This document shows, one piece after another, positions 9,266 to 49,468 of a DNA stretch of 64,000 nt. The stretch's first letter is position 1. The number at the start of each line of letters is the position of its first letter. Origin of the DNA: a virus (lineage: Duplodnaviria > Caudoviricetes); IMG/VR virus record IMGVR_UViG_3300037504_000149, one strand, 5' to 3'. The notes under the pieces are model-generated. The model saw only the letters and a list, made by a program, of their open reading frames with translations. It was not told the origin of the DNA and ran no database searches. The position numbers and the translations under genes are program-made.

Positions 9266-9357
9266 GGAAGGGTTGACCCCAGTAGGTGCGGGAAGCAGTC
9301 TTGAAAACTGTTGATCGTTAACGCGATTTGTGGGTTCGAGTCCCACCCCTTCCGCCA
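9266..9357 (+). tRNA. tRNA-Ser(UGA)
   Basis: Cloverleaf, loop CTTGAAA, long variable arm, G73-CCA. Confidence 0.92.
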
Positions 9358-12530: not shown

Positions 12531-12585
12531 GATTCTCCTGTTTGAATTGTTTTCGCTATAATTATACCACAACGCCCGAAAAATC

Positions 12586-12614
12586 TTGAAATTCCTAGCG
12601 ACGTATGTTATACT
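12586..12614 (+). promoter_or_regulatory. sigma70-type promoter for tRNA-Phe/Ile
   Basis: TTGAAA-17-TATACT with TG. Confidence 0.75.
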
Positions 12615-12627
12615 GTATTCGGATTAC

Positions 12628-12799: not shown

Positions 12800-13882
12800 A
12801 TGGGCACCATTAGATACAAAAATATCAAGAACAAACTTCATACTTCCTTATTTAATAATAATTACAAATATGTTGACACAAAACGTATAGCAGCATCTAA
12901 TACACAATATAACATTGGCGATATATTTTCAGGGGCTGGTGGATTAACGCTAGGTTTTCAAATGGCAGGTTATAATCCAATATTTAGTGCAGAATTAGAC
13001 AAAGATGCATCTGCAACATATAAAAATAATTTTCCAAATACTTATCATTATAATGGGTATATACAAAATATAAGTAAAAATATGGCATTAAATGCAATTG
13101 GTGAAAATAAAATACACATATTATGTGCAGGTTTTCCGTGTCAGGGCTTTTCTATTGCAGGTGCAAGGAATGCTACAGATAAAAGAAATCAGTTATTTAA
13201 GGAGTTTATAAGATTTACAAACTATTTTAAACCATGGTTTGTTGTTGGTGAAAATGTTCCGGGAATTATAACGCTAAATAAGGGCAAATTTTATGACCTT
13301 ATTATTAACAGTTTTAAAGAAATAGGTTACCCAAATATGTCTGTTCTTATTTTGGAGTCTGCCGATTATGGTGTTCCACAATATAGACCAAGAGCGATAT
13401 TTATTGCTAATCGTTTTGGATTGGTAAATCCGTATCCTAAAGAAATATATAATACTAATGAACATATCAGCATAGAGAACGCTATTGATGATTTAAAATA
13501 TGTTCCTAGAAATCCAGATATAAATCATGAATGGACTCGTCACTCTAAAACAATGGAAGAACGTATTTCTTATGTAAAAGCTGGAGGCTCTCTTTATGAC
13601 AGCTATACAGATGCATGGAAAAGACAATATAAAGGTAAACCTTCGATGACAATAAAAGAAAACCACGGTGGTGTCCATATTCATTATGAACTAAATAGAA
13701 CCATTTCTGCAAGAGAAATGGCTCGTTTACAAAGCTTCCCTGACTCGTTTATTTTCAAGGGCAGGATGAAACGTGTAATGTTTCAAGTTGGTAACGCAGT
13801 ACCACCTCTCCTAGCTTATCACATTGGACTTGCGCTTAAGCCGTCGTTGGTCGAAATTGAACAATTAAAGTTAGGAACTTAA
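12800..13882 (+). CDS. DNA (cytosine-5) methyltransferase
   Basis: FSGAGG, GFPCQGFS, GENVPG, QYRPR, GNAVPP motifs. Confidence 0.95.
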   Translation: MGTIRYKNIKNKLHTSLFNNNYKYVDTKRIAASNTQYNIGDIFSGAGGLTLGFQMAGYNPIFSAELDKDASATYKNNFPNTYHYNGYIQNISKNMALNAIGENKIHILCAGFPCQGFSIAGARNATDKRNQLFKEFIRFTNYFKPWFVVGENVPGIITLNKGKFYDLIINSFKEIGYPNMSVLILESADYGVPQYRPRAIFIANRFGLVNPYPKEIYNTNEHISIENAIDDLKYVPRNPDINHEWTRHSKTMEERISYVKAGGSLYDSYTDAWKRQYKGKPSMTIKENHGGVHIHYELNRTISAREMARLQSFPDSFIFKGRMKRVMFQVGNAVPPLLAYHIGLALKPSLVEIEQLKLGT

Positions 13883-31605: not shown

Positions 31606-33555
31606 ATGCCTGATAGAGAGCACTTGGAAAGCCCTTATCCTGATATCAACGAAGAGCGCCTTGCCAAGCTCAGGGAGCTTTTTCCTGAAGCGTTTACCGA
31701 GGGTAGACTTGATATTGACAAGCTGCGTGAAACCCTCGGAGAGCAAGTTAACACGGAGCCTGAACGCTATAACTTCACTTGGGCGGGCAAGCGAGACGCC
31801 TTAAATCAAATACGCAAGCCCTCCTGGGGTACGTTGGTTCCCGCTAAAGATGAATCTGTTGATTTCGACCATACCAAGCATATCTTCATCGAGGGTGAAA
31901 ATCTTGAAGTATTGAAGCTTTTGTACAAGTCATACTATGGTAGAGTGAAGATGATATACATAGACCCTCCCTATAATAAGGGAAAAGACCGTGTATATAG
32001 TGATAAGTGGGATGATCCCAAGGAATATTATCTTCAAGTTACGAGACAAAAAGACAGCGAAGGTAACCTGTTAACAACGAATACTGGTGCCGATGGTAGA
32101 TTGCATTCTAATTGGCTTAGTATGATGTATCCTCGTTTGTTTTTATCCAGACAACTATTAACAGACGATGGCATTTTAATTATATCCATTGATGAAGATG
32201 AACTTGTTAATGTTCAAAAACTATGTTGTGAAATATTTGGTGAAGAAAATGTGTTAGGTAACTTTCCTGTTATTATGAACTTAAAAGGAAATCAAGATGC
32301 TTTTGGTTTCGCAGAAACACATGAATATATTGTCATATGTGCAAAAAATAAACCTACTTGTACAATAAATAAATTTGATGTAAATGAAGAAGAGGTATTT
32401 AATAAATGGAAAGAAGATGAATATGGCTTGTATAAAGAGGCAGATAATCTAAGAGCAACAGGTATAAATGCACCCAGGTCTAAGAGACCTAATTTATATT
32501 ATCCTATCTTTCTTAATATAGGTACAAAAGAGTATTACGTTACACTAGATGATACTCCATTGAACGATAGTGACATTGCTATCTACCCAATAAATAAAAA
32601 CGGTGTTAAATTGTCATGGTATTGGAGTAAAGAGACATTTATAGCAAATAAGCATAATTTAATATTAAAGAAGACAACTAATGGTTGGCAATTTTATAGA
32701 AAACAACGTCCAGATATTGGAAATATACCGACAAAAAAGCCTAAGTCATTCTTTTATAAACCTGAATATAGTACAAGCACCGCGACAACAGATTTATTGA
32801 AACTAATGGGTAAAAAGGTGTTTAGTAATCCTAAACCTATTAAATTTATAGTTGATTTGATACGGCTTTGTTCCGATGACAATTCTTTAGTTCTTGATTA
32901 TTTTGCTGGTTCATCAACAACTGGTCATGCTATTTTCTATAATGCTTTATTAAATAGAGATAACCGGCATTTTATCTTGGTACAAATACCTGAAATATTA
33001 GATATTAATAATAATGACCAAAAAATAGCGGCACAGTATTGTATGGATATTGATAAGCCATGTAACATCGCGGAACTATCTAAAGAACGATTGAGGAAAG
33101 CTATTCAAGATTTTGCAGAAGAACCAATGTTATCAAACAGTCTTGGTTTCCGCGTTTTCAAACTCCAGCCCTCACATATCCGCAAGTGGCAACCTCTGCC
33201 TCCCGATACAACTCAAGAGGAATACCTAGCCCAGCTTGAACAAACGGGTGAACCGTTGTTAGACGGCTGGAACGTCGAGGAAGTGATCTATGAAATCATC
33301 CTCGCCGAAGGCTTATCACTAACCTCAAGGATCGAGCAAGTCCCCTGTGAAATGCAAAGAGTCTATAAGGTTGTTGATGATGAAAAACAGCAACACATTT
33401 ACATATGCCTTAACGATAGCATAGATTATGAGTATATTAAGTCGTTGAACTTGTCTGAAGATGATCGGTTTATTTGCCGCGATTCCGCCCTCGATGATAC
33501 AACAGTTGCTAACCTGGCGCTCATGTGCAGGGTTAAAACCATTAGCGAGTTATAG
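31606..33555 (+). CDS. mod: Type III R-M methyltransferase (Mod)
   Basis: ERYNFTWAGK, IYIDPPYN, HSNWLSMMYPRL, LDYFAGSSTT. Confidence 0.95.
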   Translation: MPDREHLESPYPDINEERLAKLRELFPEAFTEGRLDIDKLRETLGEQVNTEPERYNFTWAGKRDALNQIRKPSWGTLVPAKDESVDFDHTKHIFIEGENLEVLKLLYKSYYGRVKMIYIDPPYNKGKDRVYSDKWDDPKEYYLQVTRQKDSEGNLLTTNTGADGRLHSNWLSMMYPRLFLSRQLLTDDGILIISIDEDELVNVQKLCCEIFGEENVLGNFPVIMNLKGNQDAFGFAETHEYIVICAKNKPTCTINKFDVNEEEVFNKWKEDEYGLYKEADNLRATGINAPRSKRPNLYYPIFLNIGTKEYYVTLDDTPLNDSDIAIYPINKNGVKLSWYWSKETFIANKHNLILKKTTNGWQFYRKQRPDIGNIPTKKPKSFFYKPEYSTSTATTDLLKLMGKKVFSNPKPIKFIVDLIRLCSDDNSLVLDYFAGSSTTGHAIFYNALLNRDNRHFILVQIPEILDINNNDQKIAAQYCMDIDKPCNIAELSKERLRKAIQDFAEEPMLSNSLGFRVFKLQPSHIRKWQPLPPDTTQEEYLAQLEQTGEPLLDGWNVEEVIYEIILAEGLSLTSRIEQVPCEMQRVYKVVDDEKQQHIYICLNDSIDYEYIKSLNLSEDDRFICRDSALDDTTVANLALMCRVKTISEL

Positions 33556-33557
33556 CG

Positions 33558-36158
33558 ATGAAGTTCAAGTTTGACGCCAATATGGACTATCAGGTACAGG
33601 CAGTGCGGTCTGTAGTTGATCTTTTCAACGGTCAAGGCATGAATCGCGGTGACTTGATCTCGACAGACACTGCTCTGTTTACTGTACAAAACAGTCTAAG
33701 CCTTCCCGACGCGCACATTCTTGAAAACCTAGGAACAATCCAACAGGACAATAAACTAATCCAAGATGATGAGTTACTAAAAGAACCATTCGGTTTCCCT
33801 AACTTCACCGTCGAGATGGAAACAGGCACCGGTAAAACCTATGTATATATCCGCACGGCTTTAGAGCTTTATAGAACATATGGTTGGCGTAAGTTTATTA
33901 TCATCGTACCTAGTATAGCCATCAAGGAAGGGGTAACAAAAACGTTTGAGGTAACGAGAGAACACTTCGCCAATCTATTTGGTAACATTCCATACAAGTG
34001 GTATGCATACGATTCAAAGCGTCTTAGCGATGTGCGTAACTTTGCTTACAGTAATAGTGTCGAGTTCATGATTGTTACAATGCAGTCATTTAATGTTAGA
34101 GAAAAGGATAAGCGGATTATATATAACTACAGAGATGGGTTCCCGGAGAAACCAATTGATTTAATCCGTTCAACAAGGCCCATCTTGATTATGGATGAAC
34201 CTCAAAAGATGGGGGGTCAGATAACGACGGATAAGATAGCTGAATTCAATCCCTTGTTCGCACTTCGCTACTCTGCCACCCACAAGGATTATTATAACCT
34301 TGTCTATCGTTTATCTCCTTATGAAGCGTATCGTAAGGGTTTGGTTAAGAAGATCGAGGTCGCAGCGATAACAACTCATAGGGCTACCGGTAGTCCACTT
34401 ATCGTTGTAGAAAAACTAGCATCTCGTAAAACCTCGATTAAGGCGACCCTACGAGTTAATAAACTGTTAAAAAAAGACGATATTCAAGAAAAAGAGATAA
34501 CTGTTGAACTAGGTGATGACTTAGAAACTATTACTAATCTTGGTCAGTATGAAGGTTATGTCGTGGACGAGATCAACATAAGAGAAGGGTTTATATCATT
34601 TCATAATGGTGTAAGAATAATGAAAGGCGAGGGGATAGGCGACAATAAAGAAGAGATATTTCGTATGCAGATACGAGAGACTATAAAGGAGCACTTTTCC
34701 AAACAATATAAATTAATAGATACGGGTATAAAAGTTATGAGTCTGTTCTTTATTGATAAAGTGGCAAACTTTATAGATGATGAAGGCATTATAAGACGAG
34801 CATTCATTGAAGCATTTAATGAGCTAAAGAAGGGTGAATGGACTAAATATGAACCAGAAGATGTTTGGGGTTATTATTTCTCAGAGCAATCCAAGGGTAA
34901 ATATAAGGATACCGGAGGCAGTACACAAAAGGATGAAGACACGTACAACTTAATCATGCGGGATAAGGAAAGGCTGCTGTCCTTCAATGAACCGCGCTGT
35001 TTCATCTTTTCACATTCAGCCCTTCGAGAAGGCTGGGACAATCCAAATGTTTTCCAGATATGCACATTGAATACAACAAAATCTGATATGAAGAAGAGAC
35101 AAGAGATCGGGCGGGGAGTAAGACTCGCTGTAGATCAGGCTGGTAATAGGCTATTTGATGGAGAAGTAAACAAACTCACTGTTTTTGCCAATGAGAGTTA
35201 TGAATCGTATATTGAGACTTTACAGAATGAGATTGAAGAAGAAGGTGGGGATACATCCCATGTTAAGGAAATGGTTAAGGATCATCGAGAGAGAGTTGTA
35301 CTGAAACGCAAGAAGCTTACTCCTGAATTTGAAGCCCTATGGAATCGAATTAAGCAGAGAACTCGATACTCAGTGTACATTGATACTACCCGGTTAATAA
35401 CTAATGTCGTACAGGATTTATTAGAAGAAGGTGTATCCACTCCAAGTATTGTTATGCGTAGGGCAACTGTAGAATTGGAGGATGATTCTTCCGGTCTCTT
35501 CGGAGCTCCTTCAGTTGCAAAACACCTTGGATCACTGGAGCGAAAAGAGCCTTATTCTGATGTGATAGCTGATTTGTTGCACCATCTTCAATATAATAAA
35601 CCTCCATTGCACATAAGTCGCAATACACTATTAAACATCATACAAGAAGTATCAGGTAATCTAAATATACTAGATAATCCATCACAGTTTGTGTTATCCA
35701 CTTCTCGATTCATTAAGAATAGGGTTGCAGAGGAACTTATCAATGGTATAAAATATGAAAAAATGGAAGCATATTATGAGATGGCCCAAGTATTTGAAGA
35801 AGAGGTTGAAACATGGGGTGACCTTGTTTTAAGGGCAGAGAAATCTATATACGATCAAGTATATATTGAAAGTAATATTGAGGAGACATTTGCAAGAAAG
35901 CTGGATAGCTTTCCGCGTATAAAGTTGTTTGTTAAGTTGCCCCGGAAGTTCAAAGTTGGAACACCTGTCGGGGACTATAATCCTGATTGGGCAATTATAG
36001 TTGATGATGAAGATCAACCCGAGACTGAATGTAATCGGTTATATCTTATTGCAGAAACAAAAGGTACAAATAGGATTGAGGAACTACGAACAGACGAACA
36101 ACATAAAATCAAATGCGGACAGAAGCATTTTGAAGAGTTTGAGGATGTTACGTTTTAG
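33558..36158 (+). CDS. res: Type III restriction endonuclease/helicase (Res), C-terminus probably frameshifted
   Basis: METGTGKT, DEPQ, LRYSATH, EGWDNPNVFQIC, QEIGRGVR, YNPDWA...ETKG. Confidence 0.93.
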   Translation: MKFKFDANMDYQVQAVRSVVDLFNGQGMNRGDLISTDTALFTVQNSLSLPDAHILENLGTIQQDNKLIQDDELLKEPFGFPNFTVEMETGTGKTYVYIRTALELYRTYGWRKFIIIVPSIAIKEGVTKTFEVTREHFANLFGNIPYKWYAYDSKRLSDVRNFAYSNSVEFMIVTMQSFNVREKDKRIIYNYRDGFPEKPIDLIRSTRPILIMDEPQKMGGQITTDKIAEFNPLFALRYSATHKDYYNLVYRLSPYEAYRKGLVKKIEVAAITTHRATGSPLIVVEKLASRKTSIKATLRVNKLLKKDDIQEKEITVELGDDLETITNLGQYEGYVVDEINIREGFISFHNGVRIMKGEGIGDNKEEIFRMQIRETIKEHFSKQYKLIDTGIKVMSLFFIDKVANFIDDEGIIRRAFIEAFNELKKGEWTKYEPEDVWGYYFSEQSKGKYKDTGGSTQKDEDTYNLIMRDKERLLSFNEPRCFIFSHSALREGWDNPNVFQICTLNTTKSDMKKRQEIGRGVRLAVDQAGNRLFDGEVNKLTVFANESYESYIETLQNEIEEEGGDTSHVKEMVKDHRERVVLKRKKLTPEFEALWNRIKQRTRYSVYIDTTRLITNVVQDLLEEGVSTPSIVMRRATVELEDDSSGLFGAPSVAKHLGSLERKEPYSDVIADLLHHLQYNKPPLHISRNTLLNIIQEVSGNLNILDNPSQFVLSTSRFIKNRVAEELINGIKYEKMEAYYEMAQVFEEEVETWGDLVLRAEKSIYDQVYIESNIEETFARKLDSFPRIKLFVKLPRKFKVGTPVGDYNPDWAIIVDDEDQPETECNRLYLIAETKGTNRIEELRTDEQHKIKCGQKHFEEFEDVTF

Positions 36159-36451: not shown

Positions 36452-38170
36452 ATGTCTAGATTTAACAAAACAAAGAAGGATGTAGCCAAGACTAGAAACC
36501 ATGAAGGCGCAGTAGCTTATAACTTTCTTGATCCTAAGCTAAAGTTTATAAATACTGCTGCTGGTATGGGTTTCCTTTCTAGGGGTTTTTACCAAAGCGA
36601 GAAAGAACAATTAGATACATTGCTAGAGATGGTACGCGAAAACCCTGAGTTTGCCGCTACTGTTGCAGCGCATCTTCGTAACGATCACAATTACCGTACT
36701 GTACCTTTAATCATTTTAGCTGCGTTAACAAAAACACACAACGTAAGGAAGTTAGTGCCTTATGTTGTTAAACGCGCAGACGAGATGGCTGAAGTGTTAG
36801 CAATCTACAAGTATCTTTGGGGTAACGATACTTTGGCTAACTATACTAGTAAAGGATTATTAAAGGGCATCAAAGATGTAACTCACAACTTTGATCGTTA
36901 CCAATACGCTAAGTATAACAGAACTAAGGCTGAAGTTACATTACGCGATGTGTTGCGTTTAGTACATCCTCGTCCTAAAGATGAGGAACATGACGCAATC
37001 TTTGAAGAGATCATTAACGGAACACTTGCTGCTCCGCCTACGTGGGAAGTTATCCTTTCTGCGGCAGGTGAGAAGAGTAAAGAAGCTAAGTTAAAGGCTT
37101 TGACTCCACTAGTGGAGAGTATAAGCTCTCGTGGTAAATTACCTAGTGAGTGGCAAAACTTGCCAGCAACACTAACAGATGAGCCTATGACTAAGAGGGA
37201 TGCTTGGAACCTTATCTTATCATTAGGTAAGCGTTTCCCTTATATGGCTGCTCTACGTAACTTGCGTAACATCGTAGATGCGGGTGTTTCTGAAAACAGG
37301 ATCAAGGCATTAGCAGATAGACTAGCTGATCCTTGTCAAGTATCTCGCAGTAAGCAGCTACCTTTCCGGTATCTATCAGCAGCTAAAGCGCTGGTAGGTT
37401 ATGGTGGTTTTGATGGTGATACAGGCGCTTTTGATAGAATTAGCACAGATAGAGTGTCTGAAAGCACTATCAACTACGTCATTGCTAAGTTAGAGGATGC
37501 TGTACGGTTATCTGCGGATAACTTGCCTAAGTACGAGGGTTCTACTGTTATCGGTTGTGATGTTAGTGGTTCTATGGATACTCCTATCTCCCACCATAGC
37601 TCTATTAGGTTGTATGAGATAGGACTACTATTTGGTATACTTACATCTATCAGTAATCCCAACAATGCTGTTGGTGCTTTCGCTGAGTTAGCTGAGTTCT
37701 ACACGGCTGAAAACTTGAAGATGTTTGAAAACCATCCATTAAGAGCTGCTGCTAAAGCATATGATCAGATGGGGCATTTAGGTTACATGACTAATGGGCA
37801 TCTAGTGATTCACGCTTTACTAGATCTATACGAAAAGAAGCGTATAGGTACTGTAGATAGAGTGATTTTATTTACTGATATGCAGCTTTGGAATACGTCT
37901 AGGAGGTTCTCCTATGAAGATACCAAAGGACCACTACAGAAAGCATGGAATGCTTACAAAAAAGTGGCTCCTGACGCTAAGCTATACATCATCAACCTTG
38001 AAGGGTACACTACTTGTCCTGTCAATCCTGGGCGTGATGATGTAGTAAACTTCGCAGGATGGAGTGAAAACATACTCCGTTATATTGCCCAGTATGAAAA
38101 TTCTCGTGATGTCATCGACGAGATTTCTGCGAAGTATCCCTCTGAGAAATTAGTTTCTCGTTTAACTTGA
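36452..38170 (+). CDS. rsr: Ro60-related TROVE + vWA RNA-binding protein
   Basis: TRNHEG..AY, KRADEMAE, FDRYQYAKY, RDVLRLVHPRP, TWEV.LS, YMAALRNLRN, SKQLPFRY; vWA MIDAS DVSGSM, T, TDMQ. Confidence 0.95.
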   Translation: MSRFNKTKKDVAKTRNHEGAVAYNFLDPKLKFINTAAGMGFLSRGFYQSEKEQLDTLLEMVRENPEFAATVAAHLRNDHNYRTVPLIILAALTKTHNVRKLVPYVVKRADEMAEVLAIYKYLWGNDTLANYTSKGLLKGIKDVTHNFDRYQYAKYNRTKAEVTLRDVLRLVHPRPKDEEHDAIFEEIINGTLAAPPTWEVILSAAGEKSKEAKLKALTPLVESISSRGKLPSEWQNLPATLTDEPMTKRDAWNLILSLGKRFPYMAALRNLRNIVDAGVSENRIKALADRLADPCQVSRSKQLPFRYLSAAKALVGYGGFDGDTGAFDRISTDRVSESTINYVIAKLEDAVRLSADNLPKYEGSTVIGCDVSGSMDTPISHHSSIRLYEIGLLFGILTSISNPNNAVGAFAELAEFYTAENLKMFENHPLRAAAKAYDQMGHLGYMTNGHLVIHALLDLYEKKRIGTVDRVILFTDMQLWNTSRRFSYEDTKGPLQKAWNAYKKVAPDAKLYIINLEGYTTCPVNPGRDDVVNFAGWSENILRYIAQYENSRDVIDEISAKYPSEKLVSRLT

Positions 38171-38195
38171 AATTTCCGCTGAAGTGTGCTATACT
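38167..38195 (+). promoter_or_regulatory. sigma70-type promoter for pspA and the RNA cluster
   Basis: TTGAAA-17-TATACT with TG. Confidence 0.75.
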
Positions 38196-38232: not shown

Positions 38233-38949
38233 ATGGCTAAGAAGGGTAACATTTTCGAGCGCATCGGCAACTTGATCAAGGCGACTATGAATCACCTCCT
38301 TGATAAAGCTGAGATGCCCGAGTATATGCTGAAGCAAGCAATCAAGGATATGCGGGATGAACAGCGTGGAATTACCGATGCGCTGCGTACCGTCAAGACG
38401 CAAATGATTCTTAACAAAAGGCAGATGGTTAGGAGTCGTGAAAGTGCTAAGATCGCTAAGGCTTACGTAGAAAAGTATCAGGACAGTCCTGATATCTCTG
38501 AGCGCATTCAAAACAACGTAGAGCTATCAGCAAGCAACTACGCCACACACATTAAAAACGCTCAGATGTGTAAGTCTAATCTGGAAGCTATGCAGGATAA
38601 GTATGATAAGCTTCTAGATGTTAGTGACAAGCTAGCGCTGATGATCGAGAAACTAGAGATGAGTGCTTCTCGATTGATTGCACAGCATAAAGCTGCTCAA
38701 AGCTTGAGAAAGGTTTACGAAGCGATGGCAGGTATCAACTACGGTGAAGCTATGGAAGTCTTCCAGCGGATGGAAGAACGCATCGAGCAGGAAGATGCTA
38801 TGGCTCAAGCCACTGCCGAAGTTGCAAGCGATCCGTCTCTGTCACCTGAGGCTGCTGAATTCATGAGCGGCACTGATGTGGATGGTCAAGTGGCCCTTGA
38901 CAAAATCTATAATGGTGAGGCAGACAGGGAAATTGCTGAACTAGAGTAG
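38233..38949 (+). CDS. pspA: PspA/IM30 (ESCRT-III-like) protein
   Basis: IFERIGNLIKATMNHLLDKAEMPEYMLKQAIKDM; FQRMEERIEQEDAMAQA. Confidence 0.88.
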   Translation: MAKKGNIFERIGNLIKATMNHLLDKAEMPEYMLKQAIKDMRDEQRGITDALRTVKTQMILNKRQMVRSRESAKIAKAYVEKYQDSPDISERIQNNVELSASNYATHIKNAQMCKSNLEAMQDKYDKLLDVSDKLALMIEKLEMSASRLIAQHKAAQSLRKVYEAMAGINYGEAMEVFQRMEERIEQEDAMAQATAEVASDPSLSPEAAEFMSGTDVDGQVALDKIYNGEADREIAELE

Positions 38950-38950
38950 A

Positions 38951-39093
38951 CCTTCCCATGCCTAATTGCGTGAGGCAAGCGAGGAATATAACACGCAAAG
39001 ATTAAAGTTGTGGCTAGGTAATATGTCGCCTTGAATAACTTTAATCACTTAAACACCAACGCTCATCGTGTTTAAGTTAAACTCCTCGCAAGG
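38951..39093 (+). ncRNA. putative pseudoknotted multi-stem ncRNA
   Basis: Five stems plus a 7-bp pseudoknot ttgcgtg/cacgcaa. Confidence 0.65.
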
Positions 39094-39098
39094 TTCTT

Positions 39099-39177
39099 AG
39101 TGGTAGCGTCGAAGGACGGAGTTACTTCGATTATAAAAGTCGGCACCCAAACTCTTTCCGCCTACTTACCTACCACT
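39099..39177 (+). ncRNA. Y RNA-like module 1 (short)
   Basis: Terminal stem agtggtag/ctaccact, GTCGAAG motif, GAGTTACTTCG, ACTTAC. Confidence 0.85.
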
Positions 39178-39181
39178 TTAT

Positions 39182-39333
39182 ATGAGAGCGTCGCAGTAAA
39201 GAGTTACTTCGCCTGCTAACTGGTAAGTTCTGGGTTCGAATCCCAGGGTGTACAACAAGTTTCACGAGACTTCGTACATCTAACTCAATGGTAGAGTAAC
39301 TAGAGAATCTCTTTACACCAACTTACCTCTCAT
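39182..39333 (+). ncRNA. yrlA: YrlA-type Y RNA with circularly permuted tRNA domain
   Basis: Stems atgagag/ctctcat and gtaaagag/ctctttac; T arm, acceptor, then D arm in permuted order. Confidence 0.92.
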
Positions 39334-39340
39334 TACCTAA

Positions 39341-39415
39341 ATGCGGACGCCGAAGTAGGGAGTTACTTCGTTTATTGGAAAACGCCTACTTCTCTCTACG
39401 CAACTTGCTTCGCAT
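39341..39415 (+). ncRNA. Y RNA-like module 3 (short)
   Basis: atgcgga/ttcgcat, GCCGAAG, gtagggag/ctctctac, GAGTTACTTCG, ACTTGC. Confidence 0.85.
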
Positions 39416-39419
39416 ACAC

Positions 39420-39487
39420 TGGCTATCGTCGATATGGATAGAGTTATAGTATTCCTCCAACACTAGACTCTTCCAATTACATAGCCA
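39420..39487 (+). ncRNA. Y RNA-like module 4 (divergent, CCTCC apical loop)
   Basis: tggctat/atagcca, CGTCGA, agagtt/gactct, ATTAC. Confidence 0.7.
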
Positions 39488-39494
39488 TCGAGTT

Positions 39495-39537
39495 AGGGTG
39501 AGGTAGACTTTCCTCCTTTCAACTACCTCACCCTCCA
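39495..39537 (+). ncRNA. perfect hairpin with anti-SD loop followed by CCA
   Basis: agggtgaggtag/ctacctcaccct, loop actttcctcctttcaa. Confidence 0.55.
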
Positions 39538-39541
39538 CTAC

Positions 39542-39629
39542 GGGCTAGTGGCGGAATTTTGGTAGACGCGCTGGTCTTAGGAACCAGTGGTCTTCGACCG
39601 TGAGGGTTCGACTCCCTCCTAGCCCACCA
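39542..39629 (+). tRNA. tRNA-Leu(UAG)
   Basis: Cloverleaf, loop CTTAGGA, variable arm, CCA. Confidence 0.93.
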
Positions 39630-48682: not shown

Positions 48683-49468
48683 GTGGAAAACTTTCGGAAA
48701 GTGGCGCTAATCGGCGCAATTTACAACAACTTCGATAGGCTATTTGACATACTATCTCTCATTCGTATGCGAGATAAGCGTGATGTGAACGCGATTATAG
48801 CCTATGGTGGTATCGATGCACGAGCTTACGGGGATCAATTGAATCGGCTCTCTACTTATGTAGAAGAGACGCTTCAGATCCCCTTTTACCTTATCCCTCT
48901 AGGTATAGATAAGGTAGATAATCTTATTAATTGGTTTGGTGTAGGTAAATTGCACTTTATGCCCACTTCATCCTCCTCCCAAAAAGAACATAATTTTAGT
49001 GGATACAAACAACAGGTAACGGTATACCAACCATCAGTTAATATCGGTGGATTTAAGATTGGATGTAGTTATAAAACATTAGGGAAGCCTGATAGTATTT
49101 ATGGTGAGTCTAACGATGACCCTAATCATCTACATTTATTTGTAGGCAAAGCTGATGACCATGTAGACGTTGGGAATATCCCTACTGTAGTTTCTCCGAG
49201 TTTATCTCATAAATCAAGTTATGTGAGGTATAAGGAAACAGACTTTTTAAAGATAGTTAGGCTGAAAAAAGACTATCCAGAATTCTTCTACTATGGATGC
49301 TCTGTAGACAATGACACTCAACATTTATGGAAAGTACATATCCCAGTTGGTTATGATGGTTGGTGCTGCAAAAAAATAGAACGTTTAGATGCTCGTCCAG
49401 AGTTTAACGTTACTAAAGTAGTTTATCATAACATTCATCTTCCTAGTAGCTCTCACAAGAAGGATTAG
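48683..49468 (+). CDS. hypothetical protein, possibly a degenerate metallophosphoesterase fold
   Basis: VALIGAIYNN...IIAYGGID echoes calcineurin-like motifs but lacks the catalytic residues. Confidence 0.5.
   Translation: MENFRKVALIGAIYNNFDRLFDILSLIRMRDKRDVNAIIAYGGIDARAYGDQLNRLSTYVEETLQIPFYLIPLGIDKVDNLINWFGVGKLHFMPTSSSSQKEHNFSGYKQQVTVYQPSVNIGGFKIGCSYKTLGKPDSIYGESNDDPNHLHLFVGKADDHVDVGNIPTVVSPSLSHKSSYVRYKETDFLKIVRLKKDYPEFFYYGCSVDNDTQHLWKVHIPVGYDGWCCKKIERLDARPEFNVTKVVYHNIHLPSSSHKKD

What the first reader, a model, noticed from the sequence alone, without database searches (positions are those of the whole stretch)
38951..39093. Unassigned pseudoknotted RNA between pspA and the Y RNA array
Seen: stems cctt/aagg (38951-54/39090-93), tgcct/aggca (38959-77), gcgagga/tcctcgc (38979-85/39083-89), gattaaagtt/aactttaatc (39000-09/39037-46) and acttaaacac/gtgtttaagt (39047-56/39068-77). 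A perfect 7-bp pseudoknot joins loop ttgcgtg (38966-72) to cacgcaa (38992-98). It fills the intergenic space almost exactly and I do not recognise the family. Inference: a novel ncRNA, ribozyme or nuclease-resistant element of the Ro locus.
Basis: seen in the sequence. Interest (0 to 1): 0.7.

Follow-up and report, generated by a model that had tools for sequence, protein, structure and literature searches.

The report
Conserved pseudoknotted RNA after phage pspA
Between a phage's pspA gene and its row of Ro-partner (Y) RNAs lies a real folded RNA of about 130 bases, held together by a pseudoknot, that matches no catalogued RNA family and is kept in the only other related phage lineage I could find; its job is unknown, most likely a decay-resistant boundary cap or a separate small stable RNA.

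Summary
Every stem and the 7-bp pseudoknot are at the stated coordinates. The + strand folds far better than shuffles (z -4.9). No Rfam family matches, even at E<=10.

Only two lineages carry this Ro-pspA locus among 5.8 billion proteins: the window phage, with a sister strain, and contig L001 (Ro 64%, PspA 52% identical). L001 has the same core in the same slot:
- hairpin P1;
- the P1 loop pairs with the strand just after the 5' side of closing helix P2;
- a hairpin then follows.

All pairs are kept. Four pairs changed on both sides, two in the pseudoknot and two in P2. In the sister strain the element differs at 3.8% of bases, against 11-16% at third codon positions. All five changes are in a loop or make G-U pairs.

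The outer cctt/aagg stem and hairpin P4 are not conserved.

It is not a Y RNA, tRNA, terminator or known ribozyme. A conserved pspA promoter probably drives pspA, the element, the Y RNAs and the tRNAs as one transcript.

My best guess, at about 0.35, is a nuclease-resistant boundary cap for the pspA message. A separate trans-acting small RNA is nearly as likely. Function is untested, and the evidence rests on two lineages. The scan has noted other uncatalogued pseudoknot RNAs in phage tRNA and Ro loci, but none with this sequence.

The parts
38167..38195 (+). sigma-70-type promoter with extended -10 (TTGAAA-17-TGnTATACT) upstream of pspA. It probably drives pspA, the element, the Y RNAs and the tRNAs.
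   Evidence: 10 of 12 matches with TG. The same site in L001 scores 11 of 12 with TG and is conserved in the alignment. No terminator-like site lies between it and the tRNAs. Co-transcription is inferred.
38233..38949 (+). pspA (PspA/IM30 family) CDS; stop codon TAG at 38947-49
   Evidence: Pfam PF04012, E 1.5e-21; 52% identical to the L001 PspA.
38950..38958 (+). 9-nt spacer between the stop codon and P1 (10 nt in L001)
38959..38977 (+). P1 hairpin: 5 bp (38959-63 with 38973-77) and a 9-nt loop
   Evidence: The 5' strand TGCCT is identical in L001. The two A-U pairs become G-U there, and 100% of cells stay paired.
38966..38998 (+). Pseudoknot helix: P1 loop 38966-72 pairs with 38992-98 (7 bp). 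It directly abuts the 3' strand of P1, which is H-type geometry.
   Evidence: Exact complement; duplex energy -8.6 kcal/mol. L001 keeps 6 bp in the same register, with C-G to U-A and G-C to A-U double changes.
38979..38985 (+). P2 5' strand (closing helix, 7 bp), 1 nt after P1
   Evidence: Pair probability about 1.0. L001 has 9 bp here, with two double compensatory changes; the inner AGGA/UCCU is invariant.
38986..38991 (+). Junction between P2 and the pseudoknot (AUAUAA; CAUAG in L001); AUA is shared
   Evidence: Covariance-model alignment of the two lineages.
39000..39046 (+). P3 hairpin: 10-12 bp stem with a variable apical region
   Evidence: Three sister-strain substitutions fall in its apical loop, and C39046T turns the basal G-C into G-U. 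L001 has a different 9-bp hairpin in the same place.
39047..39077 (+). P4 hairpin: 10 bp stem, 11-nt loop, abutting P3 with no spacer. It occurs only in the window lineage.
   Evidence: A39047G in the sister strain gives G-U. L001 has a 25-nt C-rich stretch here instead.
39078..39082 (+). A-rich junction before the P2 3' strand (UAAAC; GGAAA in L001)
39083..39089 (+). P2 3' strand
39090..39098 (+). Spacer before the first Y-type module (about 10 nt to the stem at 39100; 5 nt in L001). It holds the aagg of the non-conserved outer stem.
39099..39487 (+). Flanking array of four Y-RNA-type modules (context, not part of the element)
   Evidence: YrlA model hit at 39197-39318: 27.4 bits, below the gathering score of 69, E 0.0015. 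GNCGAA motifs at 39108 and 39349. The shared GAGTTACTTCG handle is also present in the L001 modules.

Best explanation
Shown: this is a genuine structured RNA domain of about 131 nt on the + strand (core 38959-39089) that no RNA library catalogues. Its conserved core has three parts. Hairpin P1 comes first. Its loop forms a 6-7 bp H-type pseudoknot with the strand just downstream of the 5' side of closing helix P2. A hairpin (P3) follows immediately. P4 and the outer 4-bp stem are lineage-specific extras.

Inferred: it is transcribed from the conserved pspA promoter as part of one precursor: pspA, then the element, then the Y RNAs, the anti-SD minihelix and the tRNAs.

Proposed mechanism, which I commit to at about one in three: the element is a cis-acting boundary cap. 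When host endonucleases cut the short single-stranded spacers to release the Y RNAs and tRNAs, the pspA message is left ending in this compact knot. The knot is the P1/pseudoknot coaxial stack clamped to P2, with almost no free 3' tail. That would block 3'-to-5' exonucleases such as PNPase, RNase II and RNase R, the kind of enzyme that Ro/Y RNA particles recruit. pspA mRNA would then stay stable while the same promoter feeds the non-coding array. The logic resembles the structured 3' end of MALAT1 upstream of its RNase-P-released tRNA-like RNA.
For: The structure is real:
- z -4.9 on the + strand.
- G-U pairs in L001 and in the sister strain work only on the + strand.
- 100% of 100 pair cells are paired across three distinct sequences, and 4 pairs changed on both sides. 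Slid controls give 33-45% paired and no double changes.
- The element differs at 3.8% of bases (5 of 131) against 11-16% at third codon positions, binomial P 0.002 to 1e-5. All five changes sit in a loop or make G-U pairs.
- A covariance model built from the window lineage alone finds the L001 copy as its best foreign hit, exactly in the syntenic slot (14.3 bits, E 0.05-0.18).
- An L001-grade descriptor hit is expected about 0.001 times per such slot.

One transcript: the promoter is conserved in both lineages and no terminator lies before the tRNAs.

Boundary role:
- In both lineages the element starts 9-10 nt after the pspA stop and ends 5-10 nt before the first Y module.
- Its two ends are brought together, as in the neighbouring self-closing modules.
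- Ro loci without pspA put Y RNAs directly after the ORF with no such element, so the element travels with the protein-coding insertion. That fits a message-stabilising role.
Against:
- A plain hairpin would suffice as a 3' stabiliser. Conservation of a specific pseudoknot register, an identical P1 sequence and shared junction bases (AUA, CA, AAA) suggests instead that a specific partner recognises the core, which favours the trans-acting rival.
- Only two lineages exist, so the link with pspA rests on n=2.
- Nested thermodynamics alone prefers an alternative 5' hairpin in the window.
- The L001 fold on its own is not better than shuffles (z -1.0).
Confidence: 0.35

Rival explanations
1. It is a separate, trans-acting small stable RNA and the first module of the non-coding array. 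It would be cut out at both flanking spacers like the Y RNAs and tRNAs. Its conserved pseudoknot core would be a docking or decoy surface for a specific protein, either from the phage (for example PspA, RlaP or RtcB) or a host RNA-handling enzyme. This would make it comparable to the T4 stable RNAs C and D.
For: It has the same modular design as its neighbours: a 7-9 bp closing helix and short spacers. The core sequence and register are conserved while the peripheral hairpins differ in number and size, which is typical of RNAs with a recognised core. T4 also carries unexplained stable RNAs of 139 and 119 nt in its tRNA cluster. Earlier unchecked notes from this scan report other uncatalogued pseudoknot RNAs in phage tRNA and Ro loci.
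Against: No partner is identified. The element lacks the Ro handle: no GNCGAA and no GAGTTACTTCG. P1 lies outside the closing helix, only 9-10 nt from the stop codon, which leaves little room for a 5' processing site. There is no paralogue elsewhere in the window.
Confidence: 0.3
2. It is a self-cleaving ribozyme of a new class that severs the pspA message from the Y RNA/tRNA precursor.
For: The helix order matches the pistol ribozyme: P1 hairpin, P2 5' strand, pseudoknot partner of the P1 loop, P3 hairpin, junction, P2 3' strand (pistol layout from my own knowledge; element layout). Self-cleaving ribozymes are common in phages and beside phage tRNAs (own knowledge).
Against: No ribozyme family in Rfam 15 matches at E<=10. 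The P1-P2 linker is 1 nt, whereas pistol has an A-rich linker of several nt. No G-U dinucleotide is conserved before the P2 3' strand (UAAAC against GGAAA). With two lineages, no conserved catalytic core can be defined.
Confidence: 0.07
3. It is a barrier or anti-termination element acting on whatever travels along the RNA or DNA. It could stall a 5'-to-3' exonuclease (like an xrRNA), keep Rho from loading on the long untranslated array, or modify RNA polymerase (like the put RNA of phage HK022).
For: It sits at the exact switch from translated to more than 700 nt of untranslated RNA. H-type pseudoknots with stacked helices are mechanically strong (established knowledge).
Against: Other Ro loci manage without it. 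The downstream RNAs are themselves highly structured. No xrRNA family matches. The boxA-like CGCTCAT in the P4 loop is absent from L001.
Confidence: 0.1
4. It is a recoding or termination-linked pseudoknot. The knot begins 9-10 nt after the UAG, the spacing used by read-through and frameshift stimulators.
For: The spacer is 9 nt in the window and 10 nt in L001, and the stop codon is UAG in both.
Against: Read-through would add only 7 or 10 unrelated residues before the next stop (read). No slippery heptamer precedes the stop. The spacing could simply reflect tight genome packing.
Confidence: 0.03
5. It is a ligand-sensing riboswitch, or it has no function of its own (a chance fold in a spacer).
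For: It has a compact pseudoknotted core of aptamer size. Only two lineages are available, so the statistics are thin.
Against: There is no expression platform: no terminator and no start codon or ribosome binding site downstream. Against chance: compensatory changes, a low substitution rate and syntenic recurrence.
Confidence: 0.08

Closest known systems
Bacterial and phage Y RNAs (YrlA/YrlB, Rfam RF02553; Chen et al. 2014, PMC4201824)
   Same: Same locus and probably the same transcript. Both are self-closing modules with a 7-9 bp terminal helix, separated from their neighbours by a few bases.
   Different: The element has no GNCGAA(N0-1)G Ro-binding motif, no GAGTTACTTCG handle and no tRNA-like domain. 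It has a 5' hairpin tied in by a pseudoknot, which Y RNAs lack.
Phage T4 stable RNAs C and D (rnaC 139 nt, rnaD 119 nt) in the tRNA cluster
   Same: Phage-encoded structured RNAs of about 120-140 nt of unknown function, lying in and probably processed from a tRNA-containing precursor.
   Different: No sequence or structure homology: the element's model finds nothing in the T4 region. T4 rnaC ends in a T-arm-like hairpin, which this element lacks.
Pistol self-cleaving ribozyme (Rfam RF02679)
   Same: Same order of helices, with the P1 loop pairing to the strand just after the P2 5' side (own knowledge of pistol).
   Different: No model match at E<=10. The element has a 1-nt linker where pistol has an A-rich one, no conserved G-U cleavage dinucleotide, an extra hairpin, and about 2-3 times the length.
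Structured 3'-end caps and exonuclease-resistant RNAs (MALAT1 ENE with mascRNA; flavivirus xrRNA)
   Same: Proposed logic only: a compact knotted fold that ends or shields an RNA next to a separately released structured RNA.
   Different: No triple-helix U-rich/A-rich pair and no ring-forming 5' end can be recognised. No Rfam xrRNA match. Resistance is untested.
Read-through and frameshift-stimulating H-type pseudoknots (for example MuLV gag-pol)
   Same: An H-type pseudoknot starting 9-10 nt after a UAG stop.
   Different: No meaningful downstream reading frame and no slippery site.

Membership tests
Y RNA (YrlA, RF02553) | Ro-binding helix with the GNCGAA(N0-1)G motif (PMC4201824) | tested here: not met
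   No G.CGAA occurs in 38951-39093; the nearest copies are at 39108 and 39349, in the Y modules. The YrlA model hits only 39197-39318.
Y RNA (YrlA, RF02553) | tRNA-like effector domain (T arm and D arm) | tested here: not met
   No tRNA-model or ARAGORN hit in the element.
Pistol ribozyme (RF02679) | Match to the family covariance model, which includes the conserved core bases and the G-U cleavage site | tested here: not met
   cmscan at E<=10 returns nothing in the element. The junction before the P2 3' strand is UAAAC or GGAAA, with no shared G-U.
Pistol ribozyme (RF02679) | Self-cleavage | not testable with these tools
   Needs an in-vitro transcript assay.
Other Rfam families (riboswitches, xrRNAs, twister, hatchet, HDV-like, tmRNA and the rest; 4227 models) | Covariance-model match | tested here: not met
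   no hit overlaps 38951-39093 at the gathering score or at E<=10.
Intrinsic terminator | GC-rich hairpin followed by a U tract | tested here: not met
   No terminator-like site in 38950-39100; P2 is followed by AAGGTTCTTA.
H-type pseudoknot (structural class) | A hairpin loop pairs with a downstream strand, and both helices are supported by comparison | tested here: met
   P1 and the pseudoknot are kept in both lineages, with two double compensatory changes in the pseudoknot. The chance of such complementarity is about 0.001-0.003 per lineage.
T4 rnaC/rnaD | Sequence and structure homology | tested here: not met
   Model R1 on the T4 tRNA region: best hit 7.8 bits, and not in rnaC or rnaD.
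'ACAGCAA-handle' partner RNAs of DUF2828 Ro60-like proteins (earlier notes of this scan) | 7-bp stem followed by (A)CAGCAA | tested here: not met
   P2 is followed by AUAUAACACGCAA in the window and CAUAGCAUACAG in L001. No convincing handle-type module turned up in the window scan. The family definition comes from unchecked notes.

The most novel reading that the evidence does not exclude
The element is a new functional RNA class that physically partitions a phage operon transcript into a protein-coding message and a Ro/Y-RNA/tRNA array. It would do so either as a new self-cleaving ribozyme with pistol-like topology or as a bacterial-phage counterpart of exonuclease-resistant (xrRNA- or ENE-like) knots. 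The latter would shield the phage's own message from the Ro/Y RNA/PNPase-type decay machinery that the phage itself brings.
Probability: 0.12. Interest if true: 0.8.

Novelty: new variant of a known kind. Interest (0 to 1): 0.45.

Why it matters
Phage Ro60/Y-RNA loci and phage tRNA islands hold many small structured RNAs whose roles are unknown; T4 RNAs C and D have gone unexplained for fifty years. This element is a compact case with a defined pseudoknot core. It sits exactly where a translated message turns into a processed non-coding array, in a phage that also carries RtcB, RlaP and about 30 tRNAs.

If it proves to be a decay-resistant cap or a cleavage module, it would show how a phage runs a protein gene and an RNA-repair RNA array from one promoter. 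It would also add a bacterial-world example of RNA-knot-based end protection.

If it is a separate protein-binding RNA, it is a new component of a phage RNA-repair or anti-defence toolkit. The practical limit is that only two uncultured lineages carry it.

Tried and rejected
Searches for more homologues, all negative:
- IMG/VR scans with Ro and with PspA, as single proteins and as alignments.
- IMG/VR scan with the Y-handle pattern. It returned 40 loci, about the number expected by chance. Only L014 is a real Y array, and it has no element.
- IMG/VR and JGI metagenome scans with the pattern for the anti-SD minihelix plus tRNA-Leu. All hits were ribosome binding sites on the other strand or unrelated.
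- IMG/VR scan with an element-specific pattern. The 7 hits all lack the pseudoknot and P2 complements.
- GTDB genome contigs with a stricter element pattern: 0 hits.
- GenBank phages: DNA searches gave nothing (near) or only tRNA matches (distant). PspA by tblastn gave no match. Ro matched at no more than 33% identity.

Other attempts:
- My loose topology descriptor is unspecific, at about 1 hit per 1.3 kb. It is useful only at the stringency of the real copies.
- The MAFFT alignment of the two lineages misaligned the 3' half. I used the model-guided alignment A9 instead, which leans towards the structure.
- Covariance model R1 found no paralogue. The 14.1-bit hit at 48826-48907 on the - strand lies inside an ORF and lacks a convincing pseudoknot.

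Readings rejected:
- Y RNA, tRNA-like RNA or tmRNA, terminator, small ORF (only unconserved frames of 22-45 codons), internal promoter (no conserved -10/-35), boxA-like site (not in L001).
- The 'ACAGCAA handle' family from earlier scan notes.
- The alternative 5' hairpin 38957-72 as a conserved switch; L001 has no counterpart.

Full report
**1. The observation.** This includes the exact 7-nt complementarity between the P1 loop (38966-72) and 38992-98.
- The pspA stop codon is 38947-49 and the first Y-type module begins at about 39099, so the element fills the gap.
- Folded alone, 38945-39100 gives -48.1 kcal/mol on the + strand. That is z -4.94 against dinucleotide shuffles, and none of 200 shuffles fold as well. 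The reverse strand gives z -3.0.
- No Rfam 15 family reaches its gathering score here, and none matches at E<=10.
- ARAGORN finds no tRNA or tmRNA.
- Only unconserved frames of 22-45 codons overlap the element, and no terminator-like site is present.

**2. Context.** The window is part of a 229,864-bp contig. It carries about 30 tRNA genes, a baseplate gene, RtcB, an RlaP-like nucleotidyltransferase and a 5'-3' exonuclease, so it is a jumbo-phage-like genome. The local order is:
- a type III restriction helicase-endonuclease (33558-36158);
- Ro/TROVE (36452-38170);
- PspA (38233-38949);
- the element;
- four Y-RNA-type modules, of which the YrlA model hits 39197-39318 at 27.4 bits, below the gathering score (E 0.0015), with GNCGAA motifs at 39108 and 39349;
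- a minihelix;
- tRNA-Leu and further tRNAs.

A sigma-70-type promoter with an extended -10 lies just upstream of pspA (38167-95). No terminator-like site follows before the tRNAs. I therefore infer one precursor: pspA, the element, the Y RNAs and the tRNAs.

**3. Relatives.** Among 5.8 billion proteins, the Ro protein has one relative at 64% identity, and the next best are at 36-37%. PspA shows the same picture: 52%, a 98% sister strain, then 29% or less. No cultured phage in GenBank has a detectable PspA, and none has a Ro above 33% identity. The family therefore consists of two lineages:
- the window phage (identical Logan contig L002; sister strain on L004 and L005);
- L001, a 16.4-kb NCBI contig with Ro, PspA and a 1.4-kb non-coding stretch.

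The pspA promoter is conserved in L001 (11 of 12 matches, with TG). All further scans of IMG/VR, JGI metagenomes and GTDB genomes found nothing related.

**4. Comparison with L001.** In L001 the pspA stop is 12519-21 and the first Y module starts at about 12633. Between them lies a 96-nt element (12532-12627):
- P1 has the same TGCCT 5' strand, and its two A-U pairs have become G-U.
- A 7-nt loop has six bases (TGTATG) that pair with CATACA, which lies 5 nt after the 5' strand of P2.
- P2 is 9 bp.
- A 9-bp hairpin directly follows the pseudoknot strand.
- There is no counterpart of P4; a C-rich 25-nt stretch takes its place.

On the model-guided alignment A9, with the pseudoknot written in, all 100 pair cells form standard pairs. 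Four pairs changed on both sides: two in the pseudoknot and two in P2, each a CG-to-TA step mirrored on the partner strand. Four more pairs changed on one side, to G-U. Sliding the 3' partners by 1-3 columns gives 33-45% pairing and no double changes. RNAalifold recovers P1, P2, P3 and P4.

A covariance model built only from the window lineage (R1) finds the L001 element as its best foreign hit, at exactly the syntenic place (14.3 bits; E 0.18 in 85 kb and 0.05 in 23 kb). By itself that score is marginal.

A hand-written descriptor of the topology occurs 30 times at the window's stringency and 10 times at L001's stringency in 880 kb of control DNA. That is about 0.005 and 0.001 expected per slot.

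A caveat applies to all of this. There are three distinct sequences from two lineages, and the alignment was fitted to the structure.

**5. Sister strain.** L004 and L005 differ from the window at 11-16% of third codon positions in Ro, pspA and the next ORF, but at only 5 of 131 bases of the element. The binomial P is 0.002 to 1e-5, and the level is similar to the Y modules and the tRNA.
- Three changes are in the apical loop of P3.
- The other two (C39046T and A39047G) turn the basal pairs of P3 and P4 into G-U. These are tolerated only on the + strand.
- None falls in P1, the pseudoknot, P2 or the junctions.
- The outer cctt/aagg stem is broken (G39092A plus an inserted base) and has no counterpart in L001, so I do not count it as part of the element.

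**6. A point against.** Nested-only thermodynamics prefers an alternative hairpin (38957-61 with 38968-72) over P1, 89% against 10%. That calculation cannot credit the pseudoknot, whose duplex is worth -8.6 kcal/mol. With more upstream sequence the MFE returns to P1, and L001 has no counterpart of the alternative. The L001 fold alone is also not better than shuffles (z -1.0). The comparative evidence carries the case, not the energies.

**7. What it is not.**
- Not a Y RNA: no GNCGAA motif, no handle and no tRNA-like part.
- Not a tRNA, tmRNA or terminator.
- Not T4 RNA C or D.
- Not a member of the 'ACAGCAA-handle' family noted earlier in this scan.
- Not any catalogued ribozyme or riboswitch.

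The helix order equals that of the pistol ribozyme, as far as I know that layout. The linker, the conserved bases and the cleavage dinucleotide do not match.

Other Ro loci I looked at put Y RNAs right after the ORF without such an element. These were an actinophage-like contig L014, and L104 and L105. The element therefore accompanies pspA rather than Ro.

**8. Mechanism.**

Shown: a conserved pseudoknotted domain on the + strand, under purifying selection.

Inferred: co-transcription from the pspA promoter, and processing in the short spacers.

I commit, at about 0.35, to a cis-acting boundary cap. Once the Y RNAs and tRNAs are cut away, the pspA message ends in this compact knot and resists 3' exonucleases. 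That would matter in a cell loaded with Ro/Y RNA particles, which in bacteria recruit PNPase (established for Deinococcus and Salmonella; PMC4201824).

Nearly as likely, at 0.30, is a separately released small RNA whose core docks a specific partner. The strict conservation of the core register and the junction bases favours that reading.

The remaining readings are less likely:
- a barrier or anti-termination element, 0.10;
- a ribozyme, 0.07;
- a recoding signal, 0.03, since read-through would add only 7-10 unrelated residues;
- a riboswitch or chance fold, 0.08.

**9. Novelty and score.** As a sequence and structure family it is uncatalogued. As a kind of thing, a small structured RNA processed from a phage tRNA or ncRNA cluster, it has precedents in T4 RNAs C and D. 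Earlier unchecked notes of this scan also describe other pseudoknotted RNAs in phage tRNA and Ro loci, though none shares this sequence. I rate it a new variant of a known kind, with interest 0.45. It is real and tidy, with a testable core, but it is known from two uncultured lineages only and its function is untested.

Noticed in passing
window 38233-38949 (and L001 11805-12521): A PspA/IM30 gene inside a phage Ro-Y RNA locus. No GenBank phage gives a tblastn match to it at 1e-5, and its nearest homologues outside the two lineages are 29% identical or less. A phage-borne PspA looks unusual in itself.
   Followed up: partly
window 9266-9353: The Rfam tRNA-Sec model (RF01852) scores 51.1 bits, above its gathering score of 47, in this phage-like genome. 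A phage selenocysteine tRNA would be worth a look.
   Followed up: no
window 39542-39629 and L001 about 13479-13567: The tRNA-Leu(UAG) genes of the two lineages share a 60-nt identical core, although Ro and PspA are only 64% and 52% identical. The acceptor stem differs by compensatory changes, CTAG/CTAG against CCGG/CCGG.
   Followed up: partly
L001 13385-13478; window 39495-39537: The perfect hairpin presenting UUUCCUCCUUU (like the 16S anti-Shine-Dalgarno sequence) just before tRNA-Leu is duplicated in tandem in L001 (loop motifs at 13402 and 13450) and single in the window (39510). P2 of the element is itself an SD-like/anti-SD-like helix: GAGGA/UCCUC in the window and AAGGA/UCCUU in L001.
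   Followed up: no
L001 12631-13330: L001 carries at least six Y-type modules against four in the window. Two of them are near-duplicate YrlA-like modules with T-arm and D-arm mimics (about 12845-13010 and 13105-13245). The array composition changes quickly while the handle GAG(T/A)TACTTCG stays.
   Followed up: no
window 31606-36158; L005 1-3962: The type III restriction-modification genes (mod and res) directly upstream of Ro are present in the window and in the sister strain. They are absent in L001, where RlaP, a metallophosphatase-like gene and small ORFs precede Ro.
   Followed up: no
window 38957-38972: An alternative hairpin (38957-61 with 38968-72, extended by CC/GG) competes with P1 and the pseudoknot in nested folding. 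It is not conserved in L001. I cannot say whether it acts as a folding intermediate or as a switch linked to translation.
   Followed up: partly
L014 3660-4230: An IMG/VR contig of a different, GC-richer phage has four Y-type modules with the same GAGTTACTTCG or GGTTACTTCG handle upstream of its Ro gene (start at about 4232). One of them has a T-arm mimic.
   Followed up: no
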